This document shows positions 10,484 to 56,070 of a DNA stretch of 64,000 nt, one piece after another. Below the pieces are notes generated by a model. The model was not told where the DNA came from. It saw nothing but the letters and a program-made list of their open reading frames with translations, and did no database searches. This DNA is from Eledone cirrhosa (taxonomy: Eukaryota). Position numbers and translations under genes: made by a program. Numbering within the stretch: position 1 is the stretch's first letter; every line of letters starts with the position of its first letter. Location: contig OZ024742.1 of NCBI GenBank assembly GCA_964016885.1, positions 226,176,001 through 226,240,000 on the forward strand. Direction: 5' to 3'.

Positions 10484-10507
10484 GTTGGTGGTAAAGAGAA
10501 AAGGCAC

Positions 10508-12150: not shown

Positions 12151-12181
<31 letters not shown>

Positions 12182-12358
12182 GTTTTCAAATTCTTGTGTA
12201 GTTGTGGCTACATCTAGTGGTCGGTCAACAGGTGAAGGCAATTCTTCCTCTCTCTGACCTCTGTCTTTGGCATCTGCTGCTGTGACAGTGGCAGGGGGAA
12301 GCTGTGAGTATGACTTCCCCTTTCCTTCTTTGATTGATGGTGAAGATGCTTCAGCCAT
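10508..12358 (-). CDS. LINE ORF1 nucleic-acid-binding protein with CCHC zinc knuckle and N/Q/P/T low-complexity tracts
   Basis: ~616-aa ORF directly upstream of ORF2; CYLCGNRGHLRAAC knuckle; basic KRKKRR patch; first ATG at 12358. Confidence 0.88.
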
Positions 12359-12579
12359 TTTTCTCAAAATAGGGTTTTTCGAAGTTTTTCGAAAGTTAAA
12401 ATGTTCACAATACTATTTCGCCCAAAGGCGCAGAATATTTTGAGAGACCGACCAGATCAAAATTTGACCTGGCAGTCCCTCTACAAAATGGTACAAAAAT
12501 GAAAGTTTACAGTTTACAATTTTCGTATGAATTTAAACAAAAACTTACCGAGCGAGCTCAGCACATGTGTCCATCAGAG

Positions 12580-12973: not shown

Positions 12974-13916
12974 GAGAACAATTGCTAGAAAGATAGCAAT
13001 TCTGACAATATTGCTAGAAAATAGCAATTGTGACAATATTGCTAGAAAATAACAATTGTGATAATATTACTAGAAAGAAAGCAATTGAGACAATATTGCT
13101 AGAAAGATAGCAATTGTGATAATATTGCTAGAAAGAAAGCAATTGAGACAATATTGCTAGAGAGATAGCAATTGTGACAATATTGCTAGAAAATAGCAAT
13201 TGTGATAAAATTACTAGAAAATAGCAATTGTGATAATATTACTAGAAGAAAGCAATTGAGACAATATTGCTAGAAAGATAGCAATTCTGACAATATTGCT
13301 AAAAAGATAGCAATTGTGACAATATTGCTAGAAAGGTAGCAATTGTGACAATATTACTAGAAAGATAGCAATTATGACAATTGTGCTAGAAAATAGCAAT
13401 TGTAACTATATTGCTAGAAAATAGCAATTGTGATAATATTGCTAGAAAATTGCAATGATGACAATAGTGCTAGAAAATAGCAATAATGATAATATTGCTA
13501 AAAAATAGCAATAGTGACAACATTGCTAGAAAGATAGCAATTGTGACAATAATACTAGAAAGATAGCAATTATGACAATAGTGCCAGAAAATAGCAATTG
13601 TAACAATATTACTAGAAAGATAACAATTCTGACAATATTGCTAGAAAATAACAATTGTGACAATATTGCTAGAAATGAACAATTGTGACTATATTGCTAG
13701 AAAGATAGCAATAATGACAATATTGCTAGAAAGGTAGCAATTGTGACAATATTACTAGAAAGATAGCAATTGTAACAATATTTCTAGAAAAATAGCAATT
13801 GTGACATTGTTACTAGAAAATAACAATTGTGACAATATTACTTAAATATAGTAATTGTGATAATGTTGCTAAAAAGATAGCAATTGTGACAATATTGCTA
13901 GAAAAAAACAATTGTG
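12974..13916. repeat. AT-rich ~28-29-bp tandem minisatellite (~33 units)
   Basis: Repeated agcaattgtgacaatattgctagaaa(g)at with point variants. Confidence 0.95.
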
Positions 13917-14461
13917 AATGGTATATTTTTGTCTCTGACTGGATGTGTGGATGAATGGCCTTCTAATGACATGGATGATTAGTTTTCCAGATCAATAGAT
14001 AGATAGATAGGATAGGAAATAGGAGTACCCATTTTATGTAGGGTAATACACGTTTGTGCAAAATGAGTGTGTCGAAACAAAAAATGGAAAAGGCAGCTTA
14101 CTGGTTAATTTTGTTCAACTTGCTTGGTGGAGTTGTGTAACATAAGTATCTTGATGGTATGAGACATGTCATTGAGTATGGCACATAGATTCAAAGAATT
14201 CCACAGAGTAATTTAAAGTGAATAGGGTATAAGAAAAAACTAAGCAAAATCTGTTGAAATACAAAGAAAAATGTATTGTATAAATAGAGTCTCTTACACA
14301 TGTTTCAATGCAGATATGAAATCACCTATGAGAGCTGAAAAATTATGTTATAAAATTTACTATTCTTGCAATGCATATATATAAACCCATAGAGCATAAG
14401 ATCCCATTAAGGCTGAAAGCAGTGATTCTTTGCTTAAACTTTAATCTGTTCTTATAATAAA

Positions 14462-14820: not shown

Positions 14821-14927
14821 CGTTGTAGCATCAGTACAACCACCTTGTATTGGTAGACTGAGTGCTGGTGTCACGACAAAAAGCACTCAGTCTACCAATA
14901 CAAGGTGGTTGTACTGATGCTACAACG
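14821..14927. repeat. Perfect 46-bp inverted repeat with 15-nt loop
   Basis: 14821-14866 is the exact reverse complement of 14882-14927. Confidence 0.95.
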
Positions 14928-19484: not shown

Positions 19485-19549
<65 letters not shown>

Positions 19550-19551
<2 letters not shown>

Positions 19552-22543: not shown

Positions 22544-22558
22544 TTGGGGAATAAGAAA

Positions 22559-23045
22559 TACAAATTTAACTAGGAAATAAGTTTAATTATTTGGAAGCTT
22601 GAAAAGTGCCAAAGTAGTAGGATTGAGAGAAAATAGGATAAAAGGACTGAGAAAAGAGTGAGAACGGTAGAATTTTACCTTAGCAATTTTAATGATCGCA
22701 AGTATTTTCGGATTTACCAATCCATTATCGGGTATGGGGGGGGGGGGGGGGTATCTGATGAGGGGGTCAGAGAGCAGTTTGCGAAGAGTAAATTAAATCT
22801 ACTAGCCATCAATAACTCTTCTCAGATTGCTCTCTGAACCCCTACCCATCACCCCTCTGATAATGAATGGTAAATCCAAATATATTTTGGATCATCAAAA
22901 TTGCTTAGGTAAAATTCTAGCGTTCTCACTCCTTTCTCAGTTCTTTTGTCCTATTTTCTCTAATTCCTATTACCTTGGCACTTATAATCTCACACGCATT
23001 GTCGGGCTTCCAAATAATTAAACTTATTTCCTAATTAAATTTGTA
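22559..23045. mobile_element. ~490-bp fold-back MITE
   Basis: tacaaatttaactaggaaataagtttaattatttggaagc is mirrored by gcttccaaataattaaacttatttcctaattaaatttgta; imperfect complementarity continues inward to ~22790/22815. Confidence 0.85.
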
Positions 23046-31646: not shown

Positions 31647-31753
31647 AAGTTAATTTTAGGTTTATTCAATACATATAAAATATATATTGATAATGTTTCT
31701 CAGTAAAAAAGCTCAATAAGCTTCTGTTCAGAGCATCTATAATATAATATAAG

Positions 31754-32114
31754 TGTAAATGATATATATATGTGGATATATCAATTGAGAAACAAACAAG
31801 TATTTTGGACATATATAGAGAACAAATGATATGTTGATTTAAAAACAAATTTAAAAACATACTCTTAGGTGTTAAAATAGTGCTGTACTTACATAAAGAT
31901 TATGCTGTACAGCATAATCCTTATGTTAATACAGCTCTATGATATATGTAAGTACAACATATTCTTTATGTAAGTACAGCACAATTCTAACACCTAAGAG
32001 TATATTTTTTAATTTGTATTTAAATCTACATATCATTTGCTCTCTCTTTATATATATATGTACAAAATACTAGTTTGTTTCTCAATTGATATATCCACAT
32101 ATATATCGTTTACA
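31754..32114. mobile_element. AT-rich fold-back element (~160-bp arms)
   Basis: tgtggatatatcaattgagaaacaaac...actcttaggtgtta...gctgtacttacataaaga is mirrored by tctttatgtaagtacagc...taacacctaagagt...gtttgtttctcaattgatatatccaca. Confidence 0.85.
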
Positions 32115-32134
32115 AATATATATATATTCATATG

Positions 32135-36943: not shown

Positions 36944-37332
36944 GGCGGCACATGGCTTAGTGGTTAGAGCATTGGCCTTGCAATCAAAAGGTTGCGAGTT
37001 CAATTCTCAGACTGGGTGATATGTCGTTTTCTTGAGCAAGACACTTTATTTCACATTGCTCCAGTTTACTCAGCTGTAGAAATGAGATGATAGGGACTGG
37101 GGTCCCTATCATTCCACTGCAAAGAGGACGTGTAGGTGCAACAGCAAAAAAGCACCGAGCCCACACTGTAAAGTGGACGTGTAGACGCCATGTAAAAAAA
37201 GCACCCAGCACTCACTGTAAATGAGGTTGGTGTTAGGAAGGGCATCCAGCTGTAGAAATCAAGCCAGAATCAGTTCCCGTCCTACCCTTGCAAGCAGGGA
37301 AAAGCGGACATAAAATGATGATGATGATGATA
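36944..37332 (+). mobile_element. tRNA-derived SINE family B with RTE-derived 3' tail
   Basis: A box TGGCTTAGTGG, B box GAGTTCAATTC, CORE-like ttgagcaagacacttta block, then RTE UTR motifs and tail acccttgcaagcagggaaaagcggacataaaat(gat)n; decayed heads at ~6372, 25130, 47965 and 57610. Confidence 0.8.
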
Positions 37333-37561
37333 TAAAAGGATAAAAAATTGAATATGACAAAGCCAGCCATTAATCGCTCGTATACAGGAATCTGACTGGC
37401 CAGTCTGCTGATATGCAAATCTGGCTGATCAGTGGATCTGCTAATATACAGATCTGACCGATCAGCCAGTCTACTAATATGCAAATCAAGCCGTCATCCA
37501 CTGTATATTTTAGAAAATATCATATATTTTCACTAGCTCTGACAGTTGGTAGGTGAACAGT

Positions 37562-37611
37562 GAATTGTACTGATGAAGGGTATAACCCAGAAACATTAGT
37601 GTCTGCAGTTC
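37562..37611 (+). ncRNA. Minimal type I hammerhead ribozyme (Penelope-type), slightly degenerate
   Basis: Stem I gaattgta/tgcagttc, core CTGATGA, stem II ggg-tataa-ccc, GAAA, stem III ca-ttag-tg, cleavage triplet GTC at 37601-37603. Confidence 0.6.
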
Positions 37612-37740
37612 TGTTTACATGCCAACACAAGAGCAAGAATGAGGGGCACATTCTACTGACATGGCTTTAAAAATGAGGCTTGTTTGCATAATTGCAAACG
37701 AATCAAATATTTTTATTAATATTCGAAAAATTCAGATTAC

Positions 37741-37783
<43 letters not shown>

Positions 37784-38169
37784 CATCATCATTGTTTAAT
37801 GTCTACTTTCCCTGTTAGCAAGAGTTGAACACGTCCACATAGGTCAAGTCAGTACTGTAGCAGGGCTACTAAATTCCCAGACAAGCCAGGGAGTCTGCAT
37901 CTCACTTTCATACAGTCTCACAGAAGTGATTGTCATATATTTGATACAAGTAAAAGGTCCTCCCATCCATTTGTTTGGCAAGCTTTCTACGGCTAAATGC
38001 ACTTCCTATTATCAACCACTTTATATTATCCACTTTATAGCATGTAGTGGGTGCATTACTCGGGTAGATCACCAACACTAGAGAGGTTGTCGTACCATGA
38101 CAAAACTGAAGGGTCTTCTCAATCCTTATATATATATATATATAATAATTGTTTCTACTTTTGGCACAA

Positions 38170-38730
38170 ATAACAATGAAATTATTGTGTAAAGTGCTCA
38201 GGTGCACTACAATTCGTTAAAGGTGCATGTATAGTACATAGAATGATATAAAATGTCAGGGAAGTGAATAGTGTATGAGTCATGATATACATGTGTGTAT
38301 GTGTATGGAGGGGGAACATTAGGTGTAGTGTTGGCAAATCTCGGGGAGCATGGAGGTTTTAAAGGATGCAGTGTCTCGACAGCTAATAACTGATGCAGGT
38401 AGTTTGTTCCATGCTTCAGCAACTCTGAGCATGAAAAAAGGTTTCCGAAAGTCATGGGAACTGTGCTATTTTCTGACTTTGTGAGCATGCCCACGTGTGT
38501 TAGACACATGGAAATCAAAAAGGTGCTCAGGGTTGTTGTTGGCAAGAGGGTTAACAATTTTGTGGGTGTTTACCAAGTCAGTTGCCAGACGTCGGAGCTT
38601 CAATGTATCCATGCCCAGGGAAGCAAGAATATGGTAGCTACCTGATGGAGGGTATTCGCTTGGTTGCACGTCTCTGAACAGTTTCCAGGAGGTCAATGTT
38701 CTGAGCAAGTTAGGAGTTCCAGACTGGTGA
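38170..38730 (-). mobile_element. CR1-like LINE 3' fragment
   Basis: Reverse-complement homolog of 15575-16310; LASLGMDTLKLRRLATDL..HKIV...NTRGHAHKVRK. Confidence 0.8.
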
Positions 38731-39277
38731 TGCAAATTATATATATATACATAAAGTACAAAGACGGTGTGGTCAGATACCAGGTGGACAATAACGCACC
38801 AGAGTATGTGGTTGGTATTAGGAAGGGCATCCAGCCGTAGAAAACCTACCATATAGTCCTATATGAGCGTGACACAGTCACCTGATCAATCTTGCCTCAA
38901 ATGGGACAATACCACTCTAACCCATGCTAGCGTAGAAGATAGACATTAAACGATGATGATGATGATATATGCCCCGCCCTGCCCCTACGATCTACTATCC
39001 TTCTGTCTCTCTATCACATACATAATAAACTATATGCAATTCTCCTTTCCTGTCCTTCATATTTACTCACGCACACACACACTCATACATAAACACACAC
39101 ATATACATAAATACACACTCACATAAATAAACACACTATCATATGCACGTCTCTTTACATCGCCTCTTCCCCCTATTCACATATTATCCACCATATTATA
39201 TATATATATATATATACATGTATATATGTGTGTGTATGTATTATGTCACACACACTGTAAAACAGGTAACGTAGACT

Positions 39278-40306
39278 GAGTGTCATAACCTATGACTGGC
39301 TAGTAGCAGTTTCATTGTCAACTCATTTCCTAGGGTAAAGAAACAGAGGTATCATATCTAATGACTGGTGTAGTAGTATCATTGTCAACTGTTACCTAGG
39401 GTAAAGAGAGAGAGAGAGAGCTATCATATCTAATGACTGGTGTAGTAGTATCATTGTCAACTGTTACCTAGGGTAAAGAGAGAGAGAGAGAGAGAGGTAT
39501 CATATCTAATGACTGGTGTAGTAGTATCATTGTCAACTGTTACCTAGGGTAAAGAGAGAGAGAGAGAGAGAGGTATCATATCTAATGACTGGTGTAGTAG
39601 TATCATTGTCAACTGTTACCTAGGGTAAAGAGAGAGAGAGAGAGAGCTATCATATCTAATGACTGTGTAGTAGTATCATTGTCAACTGTTTACCTAGGGT
39701 AAAGAGAGAGAGAGAGAGAGAGGTATCATATCTAATGACTGGTGTAGTAGTATCATTGTCAACTGTTACCTAGGGTAAAGAGAGAGAGAGAGAGAGAGGT
39801 ATCATATCTAATGACTGGTGTAGTAGTATCATTGTCAACTGTTACCTAGGGTAAAGAGAGAGAGAGAGAGAGCTATCATATCTAATGACTGGTGTAGTAG
39901 TATCATTGTCATCTGCTACCTAGGGTAAAGAGAGAGAGAGAGAGAGAGGTAATCATATCTAATGACTGGTGTAGTAGTATCATTGTCAACTGTTACCTAG
40001 GGTAAGAGAGAGAGAGAGAGAGAGGTATCATATCTAATGACTGGTGTAGTAGTATCATTGTCAACTGTTACCTAGGGTAAAGAGAGAGAGAGAGAGAGAG
40101 CTATCATATCTAATGACTGGTGTAGTAGTATCATTGTCATCTGCTACCTAGGGTAAAGAGAGAGAGAGAGAGAGAGAGAGGTATCATATCTAATGACTGG
40201 TGTAGTAGTATCATTGTCAACTGTTACCTAGGGTAAAGAGAGAGAGAGGAAGGTATCATATCTAATGACTGGTGTAGTAGTATCATTGTCAACTGTTTCC
40301 TAGGGG

Positions 40307-40345
<39 letters not shown>

Positions 40346-40397
40346 CATATCTAATGACTGGTGTAGTAGTATCATTGTCAACTGTTTCCTAGGGTAA

Positions 40398-40459
<62 letters not shown>

Positions 40460-40765
40460 TGGTATCATATCTAATGACTGGTGTAGTAGTATCATTGTCA
40501 ACTGTTACCTAGGATAAAGGGAGAGAGAGAGAGAGAGAGAGGTATCATATCTAATGACTGGTGTAGTAGTATCATTGTCAACTGTTACCTAGAGTAAAGG
40601 GAGAGAGAGAGAAAGAGAGAGGGTATCATATCTAATGACTGTTGTAGTAGTATCATTGTCAATTGTTACCTAGAGTAAAGGGAGAGAGAGAGAAAGAGAG
40701 AGGTATCATATCTAATGACTGGTGTAGTAGTAGTCATCGTCAACTGTACCAAGGGTAAAGAGAGA

Positions 40766-40800
<35 letters not shown>

Positions 40801-40925
40801 CATATCTAATGACTGGTGTAGTAGTGTCATTGTCAACTGTTACCTAGGGTAAAGAGAGAGAGGGAGAGAGAGAGGTGTCATATCTAATGACTGGTGTAGT
40901 AGTATCATTGTCAACTGTTACCTAG

Positions 40926-40982
<57 letters not shown>

Positions 40983-41034
40983 CATATCTAATGACTGGTG
41001 TAGTAGTATCATTGTCAACTGTTTCCTAGGGTAA

Positions 41035-41068
<34 letters not shown>

Positions 41069-41575
41069 TGAGAGAGAGAGAGAGAGAGACAGAGAGAGAG
41101 AGGTATCATATCTAATGACTGGTGTAGTAGTATCATTGTCAACTGTTACCTAGGATAAAGAGAGAGAGAGAGAGAGAGGTATCATATCTAATGACTGGTG
41201 AAGTAGTATCATTGTCAACTGTTACCTAGAGTAAAGGGAGAGAGAGAGAAAGAGAGAGGGGTATCATATCTATGACTGGTGTAGTAGTATCATTGTCAAT
41301 TGTTACCTAGAGTAAAGGGAGAGAGAGAGAGAAGAGAGAGGTAGCATATCTAATGACTGGTGTAGTAGTATCATCGTCAACTGTTACCAAGGGTAAAGAG
41401 AGAGAGGGAGGGAGAGAGAGAGAGAGAGGTATCATATCTAATGACTGGTGTAGTAGTATCATTGTCAACTGTTACCTAGGGTAAATGGAGAGAGAGAGAA
41501 AGAGAGAGGAATCATATCTAATGACTGGTGTAGTAGTATCATTGTCAACTGTTACCTAGGGTAAAGAGAGAGAGG

Positions 41576-41641
<66 letters not shown>

Positions 41642-41924
41642 ATCATATCTAATGACTGGTGTAGTAGAATCATTGTCAATTGGTACCTAGGGTAAAGAGA
41701 GAGAGGGAGGGAGAGAGGTGTCATATCTAATGACTGGTGTAGTAGTATCATTGTCAACTGTTACCTATGGTAAAGAGAGAGAGAGAGAGGTATCATATCT
41801 AATGACTGGTGTAGTAGTATCATTGTCAACTGTTACCTAGGGTAAAGGGAGAGAGAGAGAAGAGAGAGGAATCATATCTAATGACTGGTGTAGTAGTATC
41901 ATTGTCAACTGTTTCCTAGGGTAA

Positions 41925-41999
<75 letters not shown>

Positions 42000-42459
42000 A
42001 GAGAGAGGAGGAGAGAGAGAGAGAGAGAGAAGAGATGAGAGAGGAGAGAGAGAGAGAGGAAAGAGAGAGAGAGAGAGCGATCATATCTGAATGACTGGTG
42101 TAGTAGTATCATTGTCAATTGGTACCTAGGGTAAAGAGAGAGAGGGAGAGAGAGTGGTGTCATATCTAATGACTGGTGTAGTAGTATCATTGTCAACTGT
42201 TACCTAGAGTAAAGGGAGAGGGAGAGAAAAAGAGAGGTATCATATCTAATGACTGGTGTCAGTAGTATCATTGTCAACTGTTACCTAGAGTAAAGGAGAG
42301 AGAGAGAAAGAGAGAGGTATCATATCTAATGACTGGTGTAGTAGTATCATCGTCAACTGTTACCTAGGGTAAAGAGAGAGAGAGAGAAAGAGAGAGGATC
42401 ATATCTAATGACTGGTGTAGTAGTATCATTGTCAACTGTTACCCTAGGGTAAACAGAGA

Positions 42460-42498
<39 letters not shown>

Positions 42499-43436
42499 AT
42501 CATATCTAATGACTGGTGTAGTAGTATCATTGTCAATTGGTACCTAGGGTAAAGAGAGAGAGGGAGAGAGAGAGGTGTCATATCTAATGACTGGTGTAGT
42601 AGTATCATTGTCAACTGTTACCTATGGTAAGAGAGAGAGAGAGAGGTATCATATCTAATGACTGGTGTAGTAGTATCATTGTCAACTGTTACCTAGGGTA
42701 AAGGGAGAGAGAGAGAAAGAGAGAGGAATCATATCTAATGACTGGTGTAGTAGTATCATTGTCAACTGTTACCTAGGGTAAAGAGAGATGAGAGAGAGAG
42801 AGGTATCATATCTAATGACTGGTGTAGTAGTATCATTGTCAACTGTTACCTAGGGTAAAGAGAGAGAGAGAGAGAGAGGTATCATATCTAATGACTGGTG
42901 TAGTAGTATCATTGTCAACTGTTATCTAGGGTAAAGAGAGAGAGAGAGCAGAGCTATCATATCTAATGACTGGTGTAGTAGTATCATTGTCATCTGCTAC
43001 CTAGGGTAAAGAGAGAGAGAGAGAGAGAGGTATCATATCTAATGACTGGTGATAGAGTATCATTGTCAACTGTTACCTAGGATAAAGAGAGAGAGAGAGA
43101 GAGAGAGAGGTATCATATCTAATGACTGGTGTAGTAGTATCATTGTCAACTGTTACCTAGAGTAAAGGGAAGAGAGAGAGAAAGAGAGAGGTATCTTATC
43201 TAATGACTGTTGTAGTAGTATCATTGTCACTTGTTACCTAGAGTAAAGGGAGAGAGAGAGAAAGAGAGAGGTATCATATCTAATGACTGGTGTAGTAGTA
43301 TCATCGTCAACTATTACCAAGGGTAAAGAGAGAGAGGGAGGGAGAGAGAGAGAGAGAGAGGTATCATATCTAATGACTGGTGTAGTAGTATCATTGTCAA
43401 CTGTTTCCTAGGGTAAAGAGAGAGAGAGAGAGAGAG

Positions 43437-43473
<37 letters not shown>

Positions 43474-43703
43474 CATATCTAATGACTGGTGTAGTAGTAT
43501 CATNNNNNNNNNNNNNNNNNNNNNNNNNNNNNNNNNNNNNNNNNNNNNNNNNNNNNNNNNNNNNNNNNNNNNNNNNNNNNNNNNNNNNNNNNNNNNNNNN
43601 NNNNNNNNNNNNNNNNNNNNNNNNNNNNNNNNNNNNNNNNNNNNNNNNNNNNNNNNNNNNNNNNNNNNNNNNNNNNNNNNNNNNNNNNNNNNNNNNNNNN
43701 NNN

Positions 43704-43739
<36 letters not shown>

Positions 43740-43793
43740 GAGGTATCATATCTAATGACTGTTGTAGTAGTATCATTGTCAACTGTTACCTAG

Positions 43794-43824
<31 letters not shown>

Positions 43825-43897
43825 CTATCATATCTAATGACTGGTGTAGTAGTATCATTGTCAACTGTTACCTAGGGTAAAGAGAGAGAGAGAGAGT

Positions 43898-43936
<39 letters not shown>

Positions 43937-44191
43937 CATGTCTAATGACTGGTGTAGTAGTATAATTGTCAACTGTTACCTAGGGTAAAGGGAGAGAGAG
44001 AGAGAGAGAGGTATCATATCTAATGACTGGTGTAGTAGTATCATTGTCAACTGTTACATAGGGTAAAGGTAGAGAGAGAGAGAGACAGAGAGAGAGGTAT
44101 CATATCTAATGACTGGTGTAGTAGTATCCTAGTCAACTGTGACCTAGAGTAAAGGGAGAGAGTGAGAGTGAGCGAGAGATAGAGAGTGAGT

Positions 44192-44248
<57 letters not shown>

Positions 44249-44469
44249 ATCATATCTAATGACTGGTGTAGTAGTATCCTTGTCAACTGTTACCTAGAGT
44301 AAAGGGAGAGAGAGAGGTATCATATCTAATGACTGGTGTTGTAGTATCCTTGTCAACTGTTACCTAGGGCAAAGAGAGAGAGAGAGAGAGAGAGAGCTAT
44401 CATATCTAATGACTGGTGTAGTAGTATCATTGTCAACTGTTACCTAGGGTAAAGAGAGAGAGAGAGAGT

Positions 44470-44506
<37 letters not shown>

Positions 44507-44634
44507 CATGTCTAATGACTGGTGTAGTAGTATAATTGTCAACTGTTACCTAGGGTAAAGGGAGAGAGAGAGAGAGAGAGGTATCATATCTAATGACTGG
44601 TGTAGTAGTATCATTGTCAACTGTTACCTAGGGT

Positions 44635-44682
<48 letters not shown>

Positions 44683-45250
44683 ATCATATCTAATGCCTGG
44701 TGTAGTAGTATCATTGTCAACTGTTACGTATTGGTAAAGGGAGGAGAGAGAGAGAGAGAGGGATAGAGGTATCATATCTAATGACTGGTGTAGTAGTATC
44801 CTTGTCAACTGTTACCTAGGGTAAAGAGAGAGAGGGAGAGAGACAGAGGTATCATATCTAATGACTGGTCTAGTAGTATCCTTGTCAACTGTTACCTAGG
44901 GTAAAGAGAGAGAGGGAGAGAGAGAGAGGTATCATATCTAATGACTGGTCTAGTAGTATCCTTGTCAACTGTTACCTAGGGTTAAGAGAGAGAGGGAGAG
45001 AGAGAGAGGTATCATATCTAATGACTGGTGTAGTAGTATCATTGTCAACTGTTACCTAGGGTAAAGAGAGAGAGGGAGAGAGAGAGAGGTATCATATCTA
45101 ATGACTGGTGAGCAGTATCCTTGTCAACTGTTACCTAGGGTAAAGAGAGAGAGGGAGAGAGAGAGAGGTATCATATCTAATGACTGGTGTAGTAGTATCA
45201 TTGTCAACTGTTACCTAGGGTAAAGAGAGAGACACAGAGAGAGAGAGAGG

Positions 45251-45324
<74 letters not shown>

Positions 45325-45641
45325 CTATCATATCTAATGTCTGGTGTAGTAGTATCATTGTCAACTGTTACCTAGGGTAAAGGGAGAGAGAGAGAGAGAG
45401 AGAGAAGTATCATATCTAATGACTGTTGTAGTAGTATCATTGTCAACTGTTACCTAGGTTAAAGAGATAGAGGGGAGAGAGGGAGGTATCATATCTACTA
45501 CTGGTGTAGTAGTATCATTGTCAACTGTTACCTAGTGTAAAGAGAGAGAGAGAGAGAGAGAGGGAGAGAGGTATCATATCTAATGACTGGTGTAGTAGTA
45601 TCATTGTCAACTGTTACCTAGGGTAAAGAGAGAGAGAGGAG

Positions 45642-45690
<49 letters not shown>

Positions 45691-45753
45691 GTATTATATC
45701 TAATGACTGGTGTAGTAGTATCCTTGTCAACTGTTACCTAGGGTAAAGAGAGA

Positions 45754-45784
<31 letters not shown>

Positions 45785-45838
45785 GTATTATATCTAATGA
45801 CTGGTGTAGTAGTATCATTGCCAACTGTTACCTAGGGT

Positions 45839-45879
<41 letters not shown>

Positions 45880-45981
45880 GAGAGAGAGAGAGAGAGAGAG
45901 AGAGAGTGAGAGAGAGAGAGAGAGAGAGAGGTATTATATCTAATGACTGGTGTAGTAGTATCATTGTCAACTGTTACCTAG

Positions 45982-46020
<39 letters not shown>

Positions 46021-46074
46021 GTATCATATCTAATGACTGGTGTAGTAGTATCATTGTCAACTGTTACCTAGGGT

Positions 46075-46138
<64 letters not shown>

Positions 46139-46269
46139 CTCATATCTAATGACTGGTGTAGTAGTATCATTGTCAACTCTTACCTAGGGTAAAGAGAGAG
46201 AGTGAGAGAGAGAGGTATCATATCTAATGACTGGTGTAGTAGATCCTTGTCAACTGTTACCTAGGGTAA

Positions 46270-46308
<39 letters not shown>

Positions 46309-46405
46309 GGGGGAGAGAGATAGAGAGAGACAGAGAGAGAGAGAGAGCTATCATATCTAATGTCTGGTGTAGTAGTATCATAGTCAACTGTTACCTAGGT
46401 AAAGG

Positions 46406-46462
<57 letters not shown>

Positions 46463-47032
46463 CGAGAGAGAGTGAGAGGTATCATATCTAATGTCTGGTG
46501 TAGTAGTATCATTGTCAACTGTTACCTAGGGTAAAGGTAGAGAGAGAGAGAGAGACAGAGGTATCATATCTAATGACTGGTCTAGTAGTATCCTTGTCAA
46601 CTGTTACCTAGGGTAAAGAGAGAGAGGGAGAGAGAGAGAGGTATCATATCTAATGACTGGTGTAGTAGTATCATTGTCAACTGTTACCTAGGGTAAAGAG
46701 AGAGCAGTGAGAGAGAGGTATCATATCTAATGACTGGTGTAGTAGTATCCTTGTCAACTGTTACCTAGGGTAAAGAGAGAGACACAGAGAGAGAGAGAGG
46801 GAGAGAGAGAGAGAGAGAGAGAAGTATCATATCTAATGACTGTTGTAGTAGTATCATTGTCAACTGTTACCTAGGGCAAAGAGAGAGAGAGAGAGAGAGA
46901 GGTATCATATCTAATGACTGGTGTAGTAGTATCATTGTCAACTGTTACCTAGGTTAAAGAGAGAGAAGGAGAGAGGGAGGTATCATATCTACTACTGGTG
47001 TAGTAGTATCATTGTCAACTGTTACCTAGTGT

Positions 47033-47070
<38 letters not shown>

Positions 47071-47212
47071 GTATCATATCTAATGACTGGTGTAGTAGTA
47101 TCATTGTCAACTGTTACCTAGTGTAATGAGAGCGAGAGAGAGAGAGAGGGAGAGAGGTATCATATCTAATGACTGGTGTTATAGTATCATTGTCAACTGT
47201 TACCTAGGGTAA

Positions 47213-47258
<46 letters not shown>

Positions 47259-47430
47259 CATATCTAATGACTGGTGTAGTCGTATCATTGTCAACTGTTA
47301 CCTGAGGTAGAGAGCCAGAGGGAGAGAGAGAGAGAGAAAGAGAGAGAAAAAGAGAGAGAGAGAGAAAGAGAGAGAGATAGACAGGCAGATAGACAGAGAG
47401 AGAGAGATATCTTATGTAATGACTGGTAAA
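39278..47430 (+). repeat. Satellite array: ~58-bp RTE-derived unit + variable (GA)n spacer, roughly 90 units, spanning an N gap
   Basis: GGTATCATATCTAATGACTGGTGTAGTAGTATCATTGTCAACTGTTACCTAGGGTAAA(GA)n repeated throughout. Confidence 0.97.
43504..43703. other. Assembly gap (200 N)
   Basis: Run of N inside the satellite; true array length unknown. Confidence 1.
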
Positions 47431-48224
47431 GTATAATATGTATGTATAAAGAATAGTTTTCCAGAAAGGAATGGAAAGGGACCACAGTTAGATAAGGAAC
47501 TCAATACATTAAGTAGAGAAGATATATGATTTATTTCATATAGAAATTACAGGATTAGCAATGTTTCAGCGCTTTGAAATCATCAGAAAATATGTGTATC
47601 AAATATCAACCAAGATATAAAAAAAAATTCTATATGCGATAAACATAACATGTACATAAATCCTAGCGCATATACAAATAGATGTGTGTTTTGGTAGGTT
47701 GGGGAGAAAAATATAATTATGGGGATGGGGACATGCCCTCCCCGCTTTCCCGGCCACCTCCAGTTCCACTGTCCCTGTGTGTACATATATGGGTGTATGT
47801 GTGCAGGTGTTATTGGACTTCCATCAATGTCGACAAAAAGTCTTCCAGTTGTTTGATCAACGGAACAGCCTACTCATGAAATCAACCTGTAGGTAGCTAA
47901 GAATTACACAGACATTGTGATAAGGCTGGCTTTTCGAATCAGGTATAACTTAGGTTTTTGAGATGAGTGGACTGGAGCAACATGAAATAAAGCATCCTGA
48001 GATGCATCAAAGAGAACACACTGCCAGGTCTGAGAATTGAACTTACAACTTTATGAACATGACCCTAACATCCTAACAACTAAGCACTGTGCCTTCACAC
48101 ACACACATACATACATATATAAGTATATGTATATTATCATTTAACATGTTTTCCCTGCTTATATATATGTGTGTGTGTGTATTGCTTGTATGTGTGTGTG
48201 TGTGTGTACATATACACATATATA

Positions 48225-49350
48225 TAATATCTTTTGTTATCAGCAGATGTAACAGCTCTCTTAACTTTTTCCACTCCATTCTTATTCTGGCTATTATGCT
48301 TTTAGAATACCCATCTCTACAGCTAATTAGGTCATTGAGGTAACAAAAGCAATCAACCACTTTTAAAGCGCCTTCTGAAGATTTGAAGGAAACCATTACA
48401 TATGTACTTTTACGGTTGACTGTTCATGTGCATCTGTTGCAAACCAAATCTGCCTTCTTTACCAGCCTGTCTGTGATCCTACATCTCTTGTGTGTCCAGA
48501 ATTTACACTGGGTACACTGTTCCCGCCGAGGTTAACTTTGCCTTTCATCCTTACAGGGTCGATAAAATAAAGTACCAGTAATGTACTGGGATAATTGCCG
48601 GCTTCGTACCAAAAGTAGAAATTATAATCCTCATTTTATGCATGCTTTTCTATACCAGCATGGATTGGACTGGTTATTACAGACCAAGCCAATACTTAAT
48701 CAAGGCTACTGTCCTCCAGGTGAGCCAGGAAACCATGCCTTGCTTACATACATTCAACTTTGGGAAGGGTTTCTATGCTTTTCTATATATCAAGCATGAC
48801 CATAACTTACTTTCTTACTGAATAAAACCTTAGTCTTTGTTAAGTTTACTTTGAGGTCTCACAATTTTAGATTTTGCTATTGTTTGGAATTTCATCTGTA
48901 AATCTTCTGCAGATTCAGCTATGAAGAACTAAATCATCAACATACAGGAATCATGATGGATAGCCAGTCATGAATTCCACTGTTATGGCCTGGAGGGAGC
49001 TGAGAACTTAGCCCTGATAAACACTTGTTTGTATATTAAATTCATCACTAAACTCCTTATTAACTTCCACCAAGCTAACAACCCCTTGATATATAGCTTG
49101 TGAGACCCATACATGCAAGTCATCTCCTTAAAAACCATCACTTTTCAGAATGTAGAATGCTGTAAAAGCCCTTCTCCAGGCTAACAAAAGTCAAATGGTA
49201 GGGTTCACTCCTAGTTCAGTATTTCTACAGTTGTACTATAATTCTCCATAACTTTCATAACCTGGTTCAACAATTTCATGTGCCTGTAATTGCCTCTATG
49301 TAATTGCCTTTCTTTCCCTGTAATAGTTGACAATAACAGTGGATATGACA
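48225..49350 (-). mobile_element. Decayed RTE LINE, parent of the satellite, with nested SINE A fragment (48521-48625, plus)
   Basis: Minus strand reads IVNYY, GNYRHMKLLNQVMKVME, LTFVSLEKGF, YVDDL, IAESAEDL, KVNLTKTKV, WTHKRCR, VVDCFCYLNDLIS in RTE order. Confidence 0.8.
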
Positions 49351-49716
49351 CTCTCCTCTTTCCACAGTTGACAGTGATACCACTACAATACCAGTCACTG
49401 GATATGATGCCCCCCCCTCTCTCTCTCTCCCTTTACCCTAGGTAACAATTGACAATGATACTACTACACCAGTCATTAGATATACCTCTCTCTCTCTCCC
49501 TCTCGCTCTCTCTTTACCCTAGGTAACAGTTGACAGTGATACAACTACACCAGTCATTAGATATGATACCTCTCTCTCTCTCTCTCTCTACCTCAGGAAA
49601 CAGTTGACAATGATACTACTACTACACCAGTCATCAGATATGATACCTCTCTTTATTTACCCTAGGTAACAGTTGACAGTGATACCACTACAATACCAGT
49701 CACTGGATATGATACC

Positions 49717-49757
<41 letters not shown>

Positions 49758-50204
49758 CTCTCTCTCTCTCTTTACCCTAGGTAACAGTTGACAAGGATAC
49801 TACTACACCAGTCATTAGATATGATACCTCTCTCTCTCTCTCTCTCCCTTTACCCTAGGTAACAGTTGACAATGATACTACTACACCAGTCATTAGATAT
49901 GATACCTCTCTCTCCCTGCCTCTCTCTCTTTACCTTAGGTAACAGTTGACAATGATACTACTACACCAGTCATTAGATATGATACCTCTCTCTCCCTGCC
50001 TCTTTCTCTTTACCCTAGGTAACAGTTGACAATGATACTACTACACCAGTCATTAGATATGATAGCTCTCTCTCTCTCCCTTTACCCTAGGTAACAGTTG
50101 ACAATGATACTACTACACCAGTCATTAGATATGATACCTCTCTCTCTTTCTTTACCCTAGGAAATGAGTTGACAATGAAACTGCTACACCAGTCATTAGA
50201 TATG

Positions 50205-50238
<34 letters not shown>

Positions 50239-51405
50239 ACCCTAGGTAACAGTTGACAATGATACTACTACACCAGTCATTAGATATGATACCTCTCTCT
50301 CTCTCTCTCTTTACCCTAGGTAGCAGATGACAATGATACTACTACACCAGTCATTAGATATGATAGCTCTCTCTCTCTCTCTCTTTACCCTAGGTAACAG
50401 TTGACAATGATACTACTACACCAGTCATTAGATATGATACCTCTCTCTCTCTCTCTCTCTTTACCCTAGGTAACAGTTGACAATGATACTACTACACCAG
50501 TCATTAGATATGATACCTCTCTCTCTCTCTTTACCCTAGGTAACAGTTGACAATGATACTACTACACCAGTCATTAGATATGATACCTCTCTCTCTCTCT
50601 TTACCCTAGGTAACAGTTGACAATGATACTACTACACCAGTCATTAGATATGATACCTCTCTCTCTCTCTCTCTCTCTTTACCCTAGGTAGCAGATGACA
50701 ATGATACTACTACACCAGTCATTAGATATGATAGCTCTCTCTCTCTCTCTCTTTACCCTAGGTAACAGTTGACAATGATACTACTACACCAGTCATTAGA
50801 TATGATACCTCTCTCTCTTTCTTTACCCTAGGAAATGAGTTGACAATGAAACTGCTACACCAGTCATTAGATATGATACCTCTCTCTCTCTCTCTCTCTC
50901 TCTCTTTACCCTAGGTAACAGTTGACAATGATACTACTACACCAGTCATTAGATATGATACCTCTCTCTCTCTCTCTCTTTACCCTAGGTAGCAGATGAC
51001 AATGATACTACTACACCAGTCATTAGATATGATAGCTCTCTCTCTCTCTCTCTTTACCCTAGGTAACAGTTGACAATGATACTACTACACCAGTCATTAG
51101 ATATGATACCTCTCTCTCTCTCTCTCTCTCTTTACCCTAGGTAACAGTTGACAATGATACTACTACACCAGTCATTAGATATGATACCTCTCTCTCTCTC
51201 TTTACCCTAGGTAACAGTTGACAATGATACTACTACACCAGTCATTAGATATGATACCTCTCTCTCTCTCTCTCTCTTTACCCTAGGTAACAGTTGACAA
51301 TGATACTACTACACCAGTCATTAGATATGATACCTCTCTTTCTTTACCCTAGGAAATGAGTTGACAATGAAACTGCTACTAGCCAGTCACAGGGTATGAC
51401 ACTCA
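49350..51405 (-). repeat. Same satellite in opposite orientation (~27 units)
   Basis: TTTACCCTAGGTAACAGTTGACAATGATACTACTACACCAGTCATTAGATATGATACC(TC)n. Confidence 0.97.
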
Positions 51406-51458
51406 GTCTACATTACCTGTTTGACAGTGTGTGTGACATAATACATACACACACATAT

Positions 51459-51490
<32 letters not shown>

Positions 51491-51690
51491 AATATGGTGG
51501 ATAATATGTGAATAGGGGGAAGAGGCGAAGTAAAGAGACGTGTATATGATAGTGTGTTTATTTATGTGTGAGTAAGTATGAAGGACAGGAAAGGAGGATA
51601 GCATATGGTTGATTATGTATGTGATAGAGACAGAAGGATAGTAGATGGTAGGAGCGGGGCAGGGTATATATATATATATATATATACACG

Positions 51691-51746
<56 letters not shown>

Positions 51747-52182
51747 CAGACAGACACACAGAGTGACCAGACAGAGACAGGCTGGCTGACATACAGTCAT
51801 GTATACAGACACACTGGCAGGCTGACGAACAGACATACATACAGACACACAGACAGACTGACTGACACACTGACAGATGGTAGACAAACAAAAGAAAAAA
51901 AAAGTGTGTGTATATGTATGTGACTGCCTGTGTGTTTGTGCATGTATATGTATGTTCGTGTGTGAGAGAGTATATATGTATGGCAGTGTATGTATGCGTG
52001 TGTTTACCGATGTGAGAAACAATAAGCACCTTTTGATCTTAAAAAAATTTAACCAGAAATAATTAGAGGGGGGGACAATACACACACACAGACACACAAT
52101 GCATATGTATATATATATACACATATATATATAAGCAGAATAAATGGAGAAGGCAATACATTCAAAAACAAAATTTACTTCT

Positions 52183-52218
<36 letters not shown>

Positions 52219-52339
52219 TGTATCTCTCATTCCCTGTCCCCTCTCTAATTATTTCTGCTTAAATAGAGAGAGAAATACTCATTATATATAATGAGTATTT
52301 CTCTATTTACAGAGAGAGAGAGAGGTGTATACGCACGAG

Positions 52340-52387
<48 letters not shown>

Positions 52388-52396
52388 ATATATATC

Positions 52397-52427
<31 letters not shown>

Positions 52428-52454
52428 ATATGTATATGTGTGTGTGTGTATATA

Positions 52455-52509
<55 letters not shown>

Positions 52510-53199
52510 GTGTGTGTGTGTGTGTGTGTATATACACATATATATGTGTGTGTGTGTGTATATGTGTGTATGTATATATACTACCTTTTACATACATATA
52601 TATATAGAGATAGGTAAATGTATACAAAATATATAGAGATGTATACGCATTATATATAAATATATCGAGAGAGAGAGAGAGAGAGAGAAAACAAGATGTA
52701 TACACAATATAGAGAGAGAGAGAGAGAAAGAGAGGAGGGAAAGGTATTGGTGAGAATAGAGAACAAAGATATGGTGTTTGTGTGGGAGAGAGAGAGAGAG
52801 AGACGGAAAGACAGACAGTCTGAAGAAAAGACAAACTGAGAGAATGTCTGAGTGTGAAAGAAAGACAGAAACAGAGACAGGCAGACAGGATGTGTAAATG
52901 GGAGAATGTGAAAGACAGAGAGAGAGAGAGACAGACAAGCAGAGGGTAAGCATACGTGAGAGATACGGTGTGCGTGTGTATGTATATAAGCCAAACAGAT
53001 AGAGAGTGTGTGTGTGTGTACACGTGTAAGACAGGCAATGTGTGTGCGAGAAAGAAAGCGAAACTGGCAGACGTGGAGAGAGAAAGAGTGTGTGTGTGTG
53101 TATGTGTGTAGGAGTGAGAAATATGAGGCCTGTTTCTGTTATATAGATTGTAATAGAGATAGACATGAAGAAAGATAGTCAATGTGTGTGTATCAATGT

Positions 53200-53256: not shown

Positions 53257-54380
53257 CGGTATATATGTCCTTATGTATGTGCGTGTGTGTGTGTGTCAGT
53301 ATAATGTCTTTGTGTGTGTGTCAAAGTGAATGCGGTTGTGTATGTGTCAGTATCTACATGTATATGTGTGTGTGTGTGTGTGTCAGTATAATGTCCTTGT
53401 GTATGTGTCAGTGTGTATGTGGTTGTGTATGTGTCAGTATCTATATGTATGTGAGTGCGCGCGTGTATGTCAGTATAATGTCCTTGTGTATGTGGTTGTG
53501 TGTGTGTGCCAGATTCTATATGTATGAGTGCGTGTACGTATGTGTGTGTGTGTGTGTCAGTATGTATATGTATGTGTGTGTGTATGTGTGTATGTCCTTG
53601 TGTATGTGTTTGTGAATGCGCGCGTGTGTGTGTGTCAGTATCTATATCTATGTGAGTGTGTGCGCGAGTATGTCAGTATAATGTCCTTGTGTATGTGTCA
53701 GTGTGTGTGCCAGTATCTATATGTATGTGAGTGCTTGTCTGTGTGTCAGTATAATGTCCTTGTGTATGTGGTTGTGTGTGCCAGTATCTATATGTATGAG
53801 TGCGTGTGTGTGTGTGTCAGTATGTGTATGTATGTGAGTGTGTGTGTGTATGTGTGTCGGTATATATGTCCTTGTGTATGTGTTTGTGTATGCGCTTGTG
53901 TGTGTGTGTGTCAGTATCTATATCTATGTGAGTGTGTGCGCGAGTATGTCAGTATAATGTCCTTGTGTATGTGTCAGTGTGTGTGCCAGTATCTATATGT
54001 ATGTGAGTGCTTGTCTGTGTGTCAGTATAATGTCCTTGTGTATGTGGTTGTGTGTGCCAGTATCTATATGTATGAGTGCGTGTGTGTGTGTGTCAGTATG
54101 TGTATGTATGTGAGTGTGTGTGTGTATGTGTGTCGGTATATATGTCCTTGTGTATGTGTTTGTGTATGCGCTTGTGTGTGTGTGTGTCAGTATCTATATC
54201 TATGTGAGTGTGTGCGCGAGTATGTCAGTATAATGTCTTTGTATATGTGTCAGTGTGTGTGCCAGTATCTATATGTATGTGAGTGCTTGTGTGTGTGTGT
54301 GTGTGAGTGTGTCTGTCAGTATAATGTCCTTGTGTATGTGTTGGTATGTATGTGTGTGTAGCTATGTGTGTCAGTATTTA
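53200..54380. repeat. (TG)-rich minisatellite with ~282-bp higher-order duplication
   Basis: Recurring gtcagtataatgtccttgtgtatgt; block ~53625-53905 repeated at ~53905-54190. Confidence 0.85.
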
Positions 54381-54479
54381 TGTGTATATCTGTATGTAGG
54401 TGTGTGTATCTGTATGTATGTGTGTAGAAAAAAAATGTAAGCATGTTTTTTCTGATAAAAATATAAAGATTAAAGCCGA

Positions 54480-56070
54480 GATTGTGTAGAAAGAAGAGGA
54501 GAATACAGGAGGAGGTGTTTGTATGTATGAGAGAGTGTATGAGTACAGATGTGTTTACGTGTATGCGTGTGTGAGTGTACAGGAGTGTATGTGTATGTTT
54601 GTACAGGAGGATGTGTACAAGAGAATGTATGTATATGTATGTACCAGAGAATGTGTATATGTGTGTGTATAGGAGAGTAAGTATATGTGTGAGTGTTCAG
54701 GAGTGTATGTGTGTACAAGAGAGTATGTGTTTGAACAGGAGAGTGTGTATATGTACATGTGTACAGAAGAGTGTATATGTTTGTATGTGCAGGAAAGTAT
54801 ATATGTATGTCTACAGGAGAGTATGTATATGTGTGCGCACAGGAGAGTGTGTATATGTGTGTGTACACAATAGTATGTATATGTGTGTGTGTGTACAGAA
54901 GAGTGTGTATATGTATGTGTACAGAGTATGTATATGTGTGTGTACAGGAGAGTGTGTATATGTGTGTGTACAGAAGAGTGTGTATATGTGTGTGTACAGG
55001 ATAATGTGTATATGTGTGTGTGTCGGGAGTATGTATATGTGTGTGTACGGAAGATTGTGTATATGTGTGTACGTGTGCGTTCAGGAGAGTATGTATATGT
55101 GTGTGTGTGTACAGATATGTGTGTACAAGAGTGTGTGTTGTGTGTGCAGGAGAGTGTGTATGTGTATATGTGTGTGTATAGGAAAGTGTATGTATGTGTG
55201 TTTACAAGAAAGTCTGTATATGTGTATGTACAGGAGTGTGTATATATGTGAGTATGCAAGAGAATGTATATGTGTGTACAGAAGACGGTGTGTATATGTG
55301 TATGTGAAGGAGGGAGTTTATGTTTGTGTGTGTGTGTATGTTTACAGGAGTGTGTAATATATTGTACAAGAGGGAGTGTGTATGTGTGTGTGTGTGTGTC
55401 CAGGAGAGTGTATATGTGTGTGTATAGAAGAGTGCATATGTGTGTGTGTGTACAGAGGACGAGTGTGTAGGTGTATATGCGTATTATGCAGTAGTGTGTG
55501 TGTGTGTGTGTGCAAGAATATGTGTGTATGTGTACAGCAGACATGAAAGTATGTCTGTGTAAGTTCAATAGACAAAAGAGTTGGAGGGGGTGTACAGAAG
55601 ATTGTATTTGTGTGTATCTGTACGCAAGAGACAAGAGTGTATTATGTGTGTGTTTGTGTAGCTACTAAAGAGTATGTGTATGTTCAAGGAAGATGAGTGT
55701 GTATATACAATGGATAGTGTGTATGTGTGTCTACAACAAACAAGAGAATGTGTGTGGTTGCATGCATTCTTTTATGTGTTTGTGTCTCTGTATGTGTATG
55801 AGACTCTACATTCATATAAGGGCGACTGAGAGAGTATGTTTCTATGAATGTGTGAAAGAGAAAGTGTGTTTATATGAAAATGTGGGAGAGAGAGTGTGTG
55901 TCTTTATCTGAGAATGTAGGAGAGAGAGAGTATGTGTTTATATGAGTGTGGGGGAAAGTATGTGTTTATGTGAGTGTGGGAGAGAGAGTATGTGTTTATG
56001 TGAGTGTGGGAGAGAGAATGTGTGTTTATGTGAGTGTGGGAGAGAGAGAGTGTGTGTTTATGTGTGTGTT
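54480..56070. repeat. Degenerate ~26-bp tgtacaggagagtgtgtatatgtgtg and gtgggagagagagtatgtgtttatgtga tandem repeats
   Basis: Visible periodic motifs in (TG/TA)-rich sequence. Confidence 0.8.

What the first reader, a model, noticed from the sequence alone, without database searches (positions are those of the whole stretch)
39278..51405. Satellite born from RTE reverse-transcriptase coding sequence, with constant units and variable (GA)n spacers
Seen: the ~58-bp unit translates GIISNDWCSSIIVNCY-(extra nt)-GK, matching GVIPKDWCSSILINCYKGKG (RTE at ~3650-3712, minus) and GVVPKDWRSSIIVNCYKGKG (~20887-20946). On the minus strand the right array is preceded by tgtcacacacactgtcaaacaggtaatg (51437-51410, like RTE VTHIVNQV). 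It is followed at 49340 by IVNYY...GNYRHMKLLNQVMKVME and the rest of a decayed RTE. Inference: one short RT segment bounded by GA-rich sequence was amplified in place over 100 times, and the junction became an expanding (GA)n microsatellite. TE-derived satellites are known in general, but an array still embedded in its parent ORF with a repeat/variable-spacer layout is unusual.
Basis: partly seen in the sequence, partly recalled or inferred. Interest (0 to 1): 0.85.

Follow-up and report, generated by a model that had tools for sequence, protein, structure and literature searches.

The report
Minisatellite grown inside a dead retrotransposon
A 58-base piece of an old, broken jumping gene is repeated about 115 times at one spot, with a variable GA stutter between copies and in two blocks facing each other, most likely through ordinary local duplication and slippage; it is a clear example of a known way that repetitive DNA is born, and no function is shown.

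Summary
The 58-bp unit is a piece of an RTE-type LINE at the N-terminal edge of its reverse transcriptase (0 of 1000 shuffles match as well). There are 114 parsed units with pure GA-type spacers of 8-151 bp, in two arrays that face each other. Only the right array (27 units) lies inside the decayed LINE, colinear on both sides. The left array (87 units, crossing a 200-N gap) belongs to an inverted copy that includes about 310 bp of outer flank. The array occurs at this locus only; 20 of 20 off-locus hits fetched are single LINE copies. The parent has no microsatellite, so the (GA)n likely arose at the duplication junction. Likely order: LINE decay, short duplication, slippage plus unequal exchange, inverted duplication, further growth. 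Each part has precedent: SINE-derived satellites still attached to their parent, ORF2-derived satellites, and the (CT)n inside RNU2. An unrelated array with the same GA-spacer layout lies about 60 kb away. Nine of 24 sampled arrays in this genome derive from dispersed repeats, and this scan found LINE-born satellites on other DNA of this genome before. Most likely neutral.

The parts
38968..39244 (+). Left arm, outer non-array flank; inverted copy of 51668-51438; starts beside a short TA run after a LINE-tail fragment
   Evidence: only two copies in the genome, both here
39245..39279 (+). Left copy of the 35-nt LINE 5' stub (VTHTV.QV.)
39280..47438 (+). Left array: 87 parsed 58-bp units plus 2 partial units, (GA)n spacers 8-151 bp, multi-unit repeat blocks; first unit equals the right array's first edge unit, last full unit shares 3 variants with right unit R23
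43504..43703 (.). 200-N assembly gap inside the left array
47439..48231 (.). Single-copy middle segment of mixed unique, simple-repeat and dispersed-repeat DNA
48232..49311 (-). 3' part of the decayed host LINE (hits up to aa 813 of the 950-aa relative), with a deletion of about 90 nt near 49242 and a SINE-like insert near 48521-48621; best other copies in the genome 67-79% identical over 123-378 bp
   Evidence: an orthologous contig of organism B shares the deletion
49312..51402 (-). Right array: 27 parsed units plus one internally deleted edge unit (49351-49312) that runs on in the LINE sequence; spacers 8-54 bp; a 6-unit block repeated at a period of 9 units
51403..51437 (-). 35-nt LINE 5' stub (VTHTVKQVM), colinear with the first unit
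51438..51668 (-). Right arm, outer non-array flank, ending at a (TA)n run

Best explanation
This is a single-locus minisatellite made of a 58-bp piece of a decayed RTE-type LINE, likely born by a short tandem duplication whose junction slipped into a (GA)n microsatellite, likely amplified by unequal exchange, and likely copied once as an inverted duplicate that then grew larger; it is most likely neutral. Shown: unit homology, colinear LINE sequence on both sides of the right array, absence of a microsatellite in the parent family, pure GA-type spacers, repeated multi-unit blocks, a two-copy inverted arm, single-locus occurrence. Inferred: (1) An old 5'-truncated LINE decayed here before the split from organism B. 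(2) About 57-63 nt duplicated, possibly helped by 3-4 nt of microhomology (the parent has (G/A)ATG or AAG-G motifs at both ends); the junction kept the parental GGAGA. (3) Slippage lengthened this to (GA)n while unequal exchange copied units with their spacers and homogenised the interior, leaving diverged edge units. (4) About 310 bp of flank plus most of the array, through about unit R24, was duplicated in inverted orientation. I slightly prefer a staggered-break inversion of the 1.9-kb middle over a replication template switch; the data do not separate them. (5) Both arrays kept growing, the left one more.
For: Unit vs LINE: 0 of 1000 shuffles; 38-46 of 57 matches to 13 paralogs collected by protein search. 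Colinear LINE hits aa 464-813. Single locus: 112 of 148 matches are here; the top 20 of the 36 off-locus hits were fetched and 20 of 20 hold one copy. No GA microsatellite in 20 paralogs. Edge spacers are the shortest, 8 nt; the innermost junction keeps AGGAGA. Block copies: right units 3-8 equal 12-17 in 6 of 6 units while 3 of 6 spacers differ by one GA. Interior hybrids R7 and R16 carry the 3' half of the edge unit. Arms: 17 of 326 substitutions, two copies in the genome. Variant order is kept between arrays: edge unit L0=R0, type 1C/40T/44C, 33C, and L86 with R23; 23 shared variants, rho 0.49, p 0.017. The post-gap left units and the right array lie in one gap-free stretch. An organism B contig matches the host LINE at 88-92% and has no gap across its private deletion.
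Against: No unamplified ancestral allele was seen: the first 128 bases of the organism B contig were not placed (table cut), and laid nothing. Microhomology of 3-4 nt is common by chance and the founding junction is overwritten. The order correlation rests partly on single-base variants that could recur. Edge units keep parental letters at only 1-3 of the diagnostic columns, and some interior units do too. The genome search scored 40 of 158 candidates, so a second array is not strictly excluded. The left array crosses a scaffold gap. The RTE clade was not tested by phylogeny.
Confidence: 0.8

Rival explanations
1. The junction (GA)n is a driver, not a passenger: once long enough, it promotes slippage, stalling or recombination, so that GA-junction duplications grow into arrays more often than others. 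This can hold together with the best explanation.
For: The larger left array has longer spacers (median 22 vs 16, p 2.6e-5) and spacer length rises along it (rho 0.42). A second, unrelated GA-spacer array of 86 units lies about 60 kb away. Roles in recombination were proposed for the RNU2 (CT)n (PMC5687341 passages) and for GA repeats around sea urchin Sp185/333 genes (PMC3091723 passages).
Against: In the second array about 20 near-identical units amplified with a fixed purine-rich spacer lacking (GA)5. None of 47 arrays in 54 sampled 10-kb stretches had GA-type runs among its commonest runs, so arrays grow here without them. Longer spacers may simply reflect time.
Confidence: 0.2
2. The left arm is an assembly artefact: the other haplotype of the right array joined in reverse.
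For: 200-N gap inside the left array; proximal arm only 7 of 226 columns different; no laid contig was listed across the arm junctions.
Against: 38 left units lie after the gap, in the same gap-free stretch as the opposite-strand right array. The distal arm differs at 10 of 100 columns plus a 50-nt indel, and similarity stops at the TA runs on both sides. The left inner edge has its own old, diverged unit and spacer. Indel-bearing units are as common after the gap as before it (6 of 38 vs 8 of 48).
Confidence: 0.07
3. The whole 12.7-kb structure is a foldback-type or two-armed mobile element with tandem repeats in its inverted arms.
For: Long inverted arms with inner tandem repeats, both ending at TA runs. 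Earlier notes describe two-armed arrays in TA microsatellites in this genome (e1-8671497, unchecked).
Against: The arm has two copies in the genome, both here; the array is at one locus. The middle is an old LINE remnant continuous with the right arm and has an ortholog in organism B. No Rfam match in 37000-53000.
Confidence: 0.03
4. The inverted arms are transcribed as a long hairpin that gives double-stranded RNA, an editing substrate or small RNAs against RTE reverse-transcriptase transcripts.
For: About 2.3 kb of inverted arms only 1.9 kb apart; the unit is up to 85-94% like dispersed LINE copies; a near-intact family member lies in the window.
Against: No host gene domain was found among 7 other window ORFs scanned. 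The unit carries a frameshifting extra base and private changes. Nothing indicates selection on the array.
Confidence: 0.05
5. A CRISPR-like repeat-spacer array that stores acquired sequences.
For: Only the look of constant units with variable spacers.
Against: Spacers are 98-99% purine: 49 pyrimidines in 3134 bases, nearly all single interruptions of GA runs. They are copied along with their units. The unit forms no notable hairpin (z +0.85).
Confidence: 0.01

Closest known systems
SINE-derived satellites (sSat) of squamates, PMC10702118 (abstract, sections 5 and 19 read)
   Same: Tandem units cut from inside a retroposon, 67-215 nt, still attached to a longer terminal piece of the parent, in minor variants on both ends; longer loci more homogeneous; locus-specific subvariants alternate.
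   Different: The parent here is LINE coding DNA; one locus, not many; the paper states that the (TC)n of Squam3 does not vary within sSat3, whereas here every junction holds a variable (GA)n; inverted duplicate.
LINE ORF2-derived satellites: chicken HinfI from CR1, hamster PROsat and seal Pvc20 from L1, as reviewed in PMC9659126 (passages)
   Same: Satellite unit taken from the coding region of a non-LTR retrotransposon.
   Different: RTE-type parent ('RTE' occurs 0 times in that review's main text); short unit; parent still in place; microsatellite at each junction.
RNU2 macrosatellite with embedded (CT)n/(GA)n, PMC5687341 (passages)
   Same: Units near-identical while an embedded GA/CT microsatellite varies in length.
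   Different: RNU2 units are kilobases long and encode U2 snRNA; here the unit is 58 bp, non-coding, and the microsatellite appears to have arisen at the junction.
Microhomology-mediated tandem duplication, PMC13167724 (abstract); staggered-break inversions with inverted duplications, PMC1885836 (abstract)
   Same: Supply known routes for the first duplication and for the inverted arm.
   Different: Neither is shown for this locus; no ancestral allele was seen.

Membership tests
TE-derived satellite / minisatellite | Head-to-tail tandem units | tested here: met
   87 and 27 parsed units; TRF
TE-derived satellite / minisatellite | Unit homologous to a dispersed element | tested here: met
   0 of 1000 shuffles; 20 of 20 off-locus hits are single LINE-type segments
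TE-derived satellite / minisatellite | Units more alike than the parent copies are (homogenisation) | tested here: met
   mean 96-97% to a reference unit vs 38-46 of 57 matches to 13 paralogs
TE-derived satellite / minisatellite | Spread to many loci or large heterochromatic blocks (classical satellite DNA) | tested here: not met
   one locus, about 10 kb assembled; 40 of 158 candidates scored
RTE-clade LINE (parent family) | Single ORF with endonuclease and reverse transcriptase, zinc-finger in some members | tested here: met
   950-aa frame with Exo_endo_phos_2, RVT_1, PHD; PMC9115989 passages describe octopus RTE as single-ORF EN-RT-Znf
RTE-clade LINE (parent family) | 3' tail of short tandem repeats (feature recalled, not from a call) | tested here: met
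   (GAT)n tails after the copies ending at 22544 and 2170
RTE-clade LINE (parent family) | RT phylogeny places it in the RTE clade | tested here: inconclusive
   none of the 120 listed homologs or Atlas clusters bears a clade name; no named reference set on hand
Foldback / MITE-type DNA transposon | Long terminal inverted repeats | tested here: met
   arms 38968-47438 and 51668-49550
Foldback / MITE-type DNA transposon | Dispersed copies with the same ends | tested here: not met
   2 matches, both at this locus
Foldback / MITE-type DNA transposon | Target-site duplication | tested here: inconclusive
   both ends lie at TA runs
CRISPR-like array | Unique, acquired spacers of even length | tested here: not met
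   GA-only spacers of 8-151 bp
Retrozyme / ribozyme satellite | Ribozyme motif in the unit | tested here: not met
   0 Rfam matches at gathering score in 37000-53000

The most novel reading that the evidence does not exclude
A microsatellite born at a duplication junction acts as an engine of satellite birth: purine-rich junctions turn into (GA)n, which then drive local amplification and rearrangement. This locus preserves every stage in order (parent LINE, diverged edge units, homogenised interior, inverted duplicate), and an independent GA-spacer array 60 kb away repeats the pattern.
Probability: 0.2. Interest if true: 0.55.

Novelty: new variant of a known kind. Interest (0 to 1): 0.32.

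Why it matters
As it stands, it is a well-preserved natural record of satellite birth. Parent, junction, edge units and a datable duplicate are all in place, and copied blocks give a direct comparison of microsatellite slippage with point change (3 of 6 spacers changed against 0 of 6 units in one block pair). It would matter more if junction microsatellites proved to drive amplification, a role proposed for RNU2 but, in the passages I read, not settled. No function for the organism is shown.

Tried and rejected
Pattern search for a parent-type tandem junction elsewhere in the genome: 0 matches, control also 0; exact and narrow, so weak. Laying three runs on the right outer arm gave nothing, even for the two runs of the best-holding sample: uninformative. 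No RNA holder listed. A by-eye likeness of the L027 unit to this unit or to the LINE failed shuffles (29-232 of 500 reached the score), and L027's array has no match elsewhere. Unit hairpin: not supported. Rfam: none. Homolog and Atlas searches gave no clade name. Loci L012-L022 mostly did not cover the unit segment (2 of 11 did). Sharing of variants by lag showed only weak periodicity. Look-ups of earlier findings near this place and by words returned nothing. Paper searches listed no report of an RTE RT-derived array with GA spacers; I saw listings only for most hits, the library lacks most subscription papers, and no supplements were opened (Supplementary Fig. 8B of PMC10702118 and the repeat library of PMC13282606 may bear on novelty).
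Full report
Setting. The window lies on a 379-Mb contig of a 3.0-Gb animal genome. It is full of LINE fragments and simple repeats. Earlier scan notes call the genome octopus-like; I did not test this.

What is there. Two arrays of one 58-bp unit face each other. The left runs on the plus strand from 39280 to about 47438 (87 parsed units). The right runs on the minus strand from 51402 to 49312 (27 parsed units). Three partial units are visible: one at the gap, one at the left inner edge, and one internally deleted unit at the right inner edge. Units average 96-97% identity to one reference unit; 16 of 87 and 13 of 27 are exact. Spacers are 8-151 bp on the left (n=85) and 8-54 bp on the right (n=26). 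They are 98-99% purine, with 49 pyrimidines in 3134 bases. A 200-N gap lies at 43504-43703.

Origin of the unit. The unit aligns to the window's LINE copies better than 1000 of 1000 shuffles. It matches 38-46 of 57 bases in 13 paralogs collected by protein search. It corresponds to aa 463-481 of a 950-aa frame with endonuclease, RVT_1 (487-687) and PHD matches, so it lies at the N-terminal edge of the RT. That architecture fits the single-ORF octopus RTE described in PMC9115989 (passages). The array unit has one extra base absent from 19 of 20 paralogs.

Embedding. On the minus strand the right array is preceded by a 35-nt stub (VTHTVKQVM) and followed by decayed LINE sequence, with colinear hits from aa 464 to 813. 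The host copy is old: the best other copies are 67-79% identical over parts of it (40 of 1324 candidates scored). A contig of a second organism (run X3) matches 48620-48994 with 29 differences and 49144-49285 with 17 differences and no gap, across a deletion of about 90 nt relative to four family members. Of 11 listed differences, 6 agree with the 950-aa relative in X3 and 5 in the window. I read it as an ortholog, so the insertion predates that split. Whether that organism has the array is open: the first 128 bases of its contig were not placed, and laid nothing.

One locus. Of 148 genome matches to the unit, 112 are here and 36 elsewhere (40 of 158 candidates scored). I fetched the top 20 of the 36, and each holds one copy in LINE-like context (second-best score 31 or less against 78-88).

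The microsatellite. In those 20 paralogs the longest GA run is 2-4 nt before the unit and 4-5 nt after it (8 nt in one). The usual 3' context is GGAGATG. Edge spacers are the shortest (8 nt), and the innermost junction keeps AGGAGA. So the (GA)n most likely grew from the parental GGAGA at the new junction. Short motifs shared by both ends could have seeded the first duplication, as in microhomology-mediated duplication (PMC13167724, abstract), but 3-4 nt is weak evidence.

Amplification. Right units 3-8 equal units 12-17 in 6 of 6 cases while 3 of 6 spacers differ by one GA; the left array has similar blocks. Units R7 and R16 join an interior 5' half to the edge unit's 3' half and spacer. This fits unequal exchange with faster slippage on top. 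Edge units are the most diverged, but they keep parental letters at only 1-3 diagnostic columns, and some interior units do too.

The inverted arm. 38968-39345 aligns to 51668-51337 with 17 substitutions in 326 columns (10 of 100 distal, 7 of 226 proximal) and a 50-nt indel. The arm occurs twice in the genome, both here. Variant types keep their order between the arrays: L0 equals R0, then 1C/40T/44C, then 33C, and the last left unit shares three variants with R23 (rho 0.49 over 23 shared variants, p 0.017). So flank plus most of the array was duplicated once. The left copy then grew, with longer spacers (median 22 vs 16). Thirty-eight left units lie after the gap in the same gap-free stretch as the right array, which argues against a mis-join. 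A staggered-break inversion (PMC1885836, abstract) and a template switch give the same layout; both sets of junctions are TA-rich, and I could not separate them.

How unusual. In 54 stretches of 10 kb, taken at round coordinates on 15 contigs, TRF after collapsing dinucleotide runs found 47 arrays; none had GA-type runs among its two commonest run types. I dropped 23 low-complexity or redundant rows and tested 24: 9 match dispersed repeats in other stretches. So TE-derived arrays are common here and GA spacers are not. Yet 1 of 6 neighbouring stretches holds a second GA-spacer array: 86 units, about 60 kb from the left array, unrelated to this unit or the LINE and single-locus. About 20 of its units amplified with a fixed spacer lacking (GA)5, which suggests that the microsatellite is a passenger.

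Known relatives. SINE-derived satellites keep parental ends, sometimes both (PMC10702118, sections 5 and 19). Satellites from LINE ORF2 are reviewed in PMC9659126 (passages). PMC12628747 (passages) and PMC11121367 (abstract; a limpet SINE-derived satellite) show the process is general. RNU2 has identical units with a variable (CT)n (PMC5687341, passages). PMC13282606 (passages) does not use the word satellite in its main text. Searches listed no report of this exact combination. Earlier notes of this scan describe LINE-born satellites elsewhere in this genome.

Verdict. It is a new variant of a known kind, most likely neutral. Interest 0.32.

Noticed in passing
L027:3756-8744 (G000:C3, about 60 kb before the left array): Second single-locus array with a constant core and GA-type spacers, 86 units; it shifts from a fixed purine-rich spacer to variable (GA)n along its length; no LINE match.
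   Followed up: partly
window 7046-12412, minus: Two long adjacent frames (634 aa, then 1153 aa with endonuclease, RVT_1 and zf-RVT): an apparently intact two-ORF LINE of another kind.
   Followed up: partly
window 19486-22544, plus: RTE-type copy with an unbroken 965-aa frame (endonuclease, RT, PHD) and a (GAT)n tail; 96.7% identical to the copy at 63942-62266.
   Followed up: partly
window 22559-23045, 31741-32128, 14821-14927: Three self-inverted (hairpin-like) segments, 73-93% arm identity; possibly MITE or foldback remnants.
   Followed up: no
window 12981-13917 and 53276-56070: A 29-bp minisatellite (33 copies) and a TG-rich compound array.
   Followed up: no
window 37746-38965: Nested LINE fragments separated by TA runs directly outside the left arm, suggesting repeated insertion into TA microsatellites.
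   Followed up: no
L045:3-10000; L082:3766-4286; L035:327-1291; L081: Sampled arrays whose units match dispersed repeats also present in the window (38365-38398; 48557-48595; LINE-tail repeats), including a block of at least 10 kb with a 27-bp unit.
   Followed up: partly
L029:5925 to L030:10000 (about 16 kb after the window): A 21-bp satellite of at least 14 kb.
   Followed up: no
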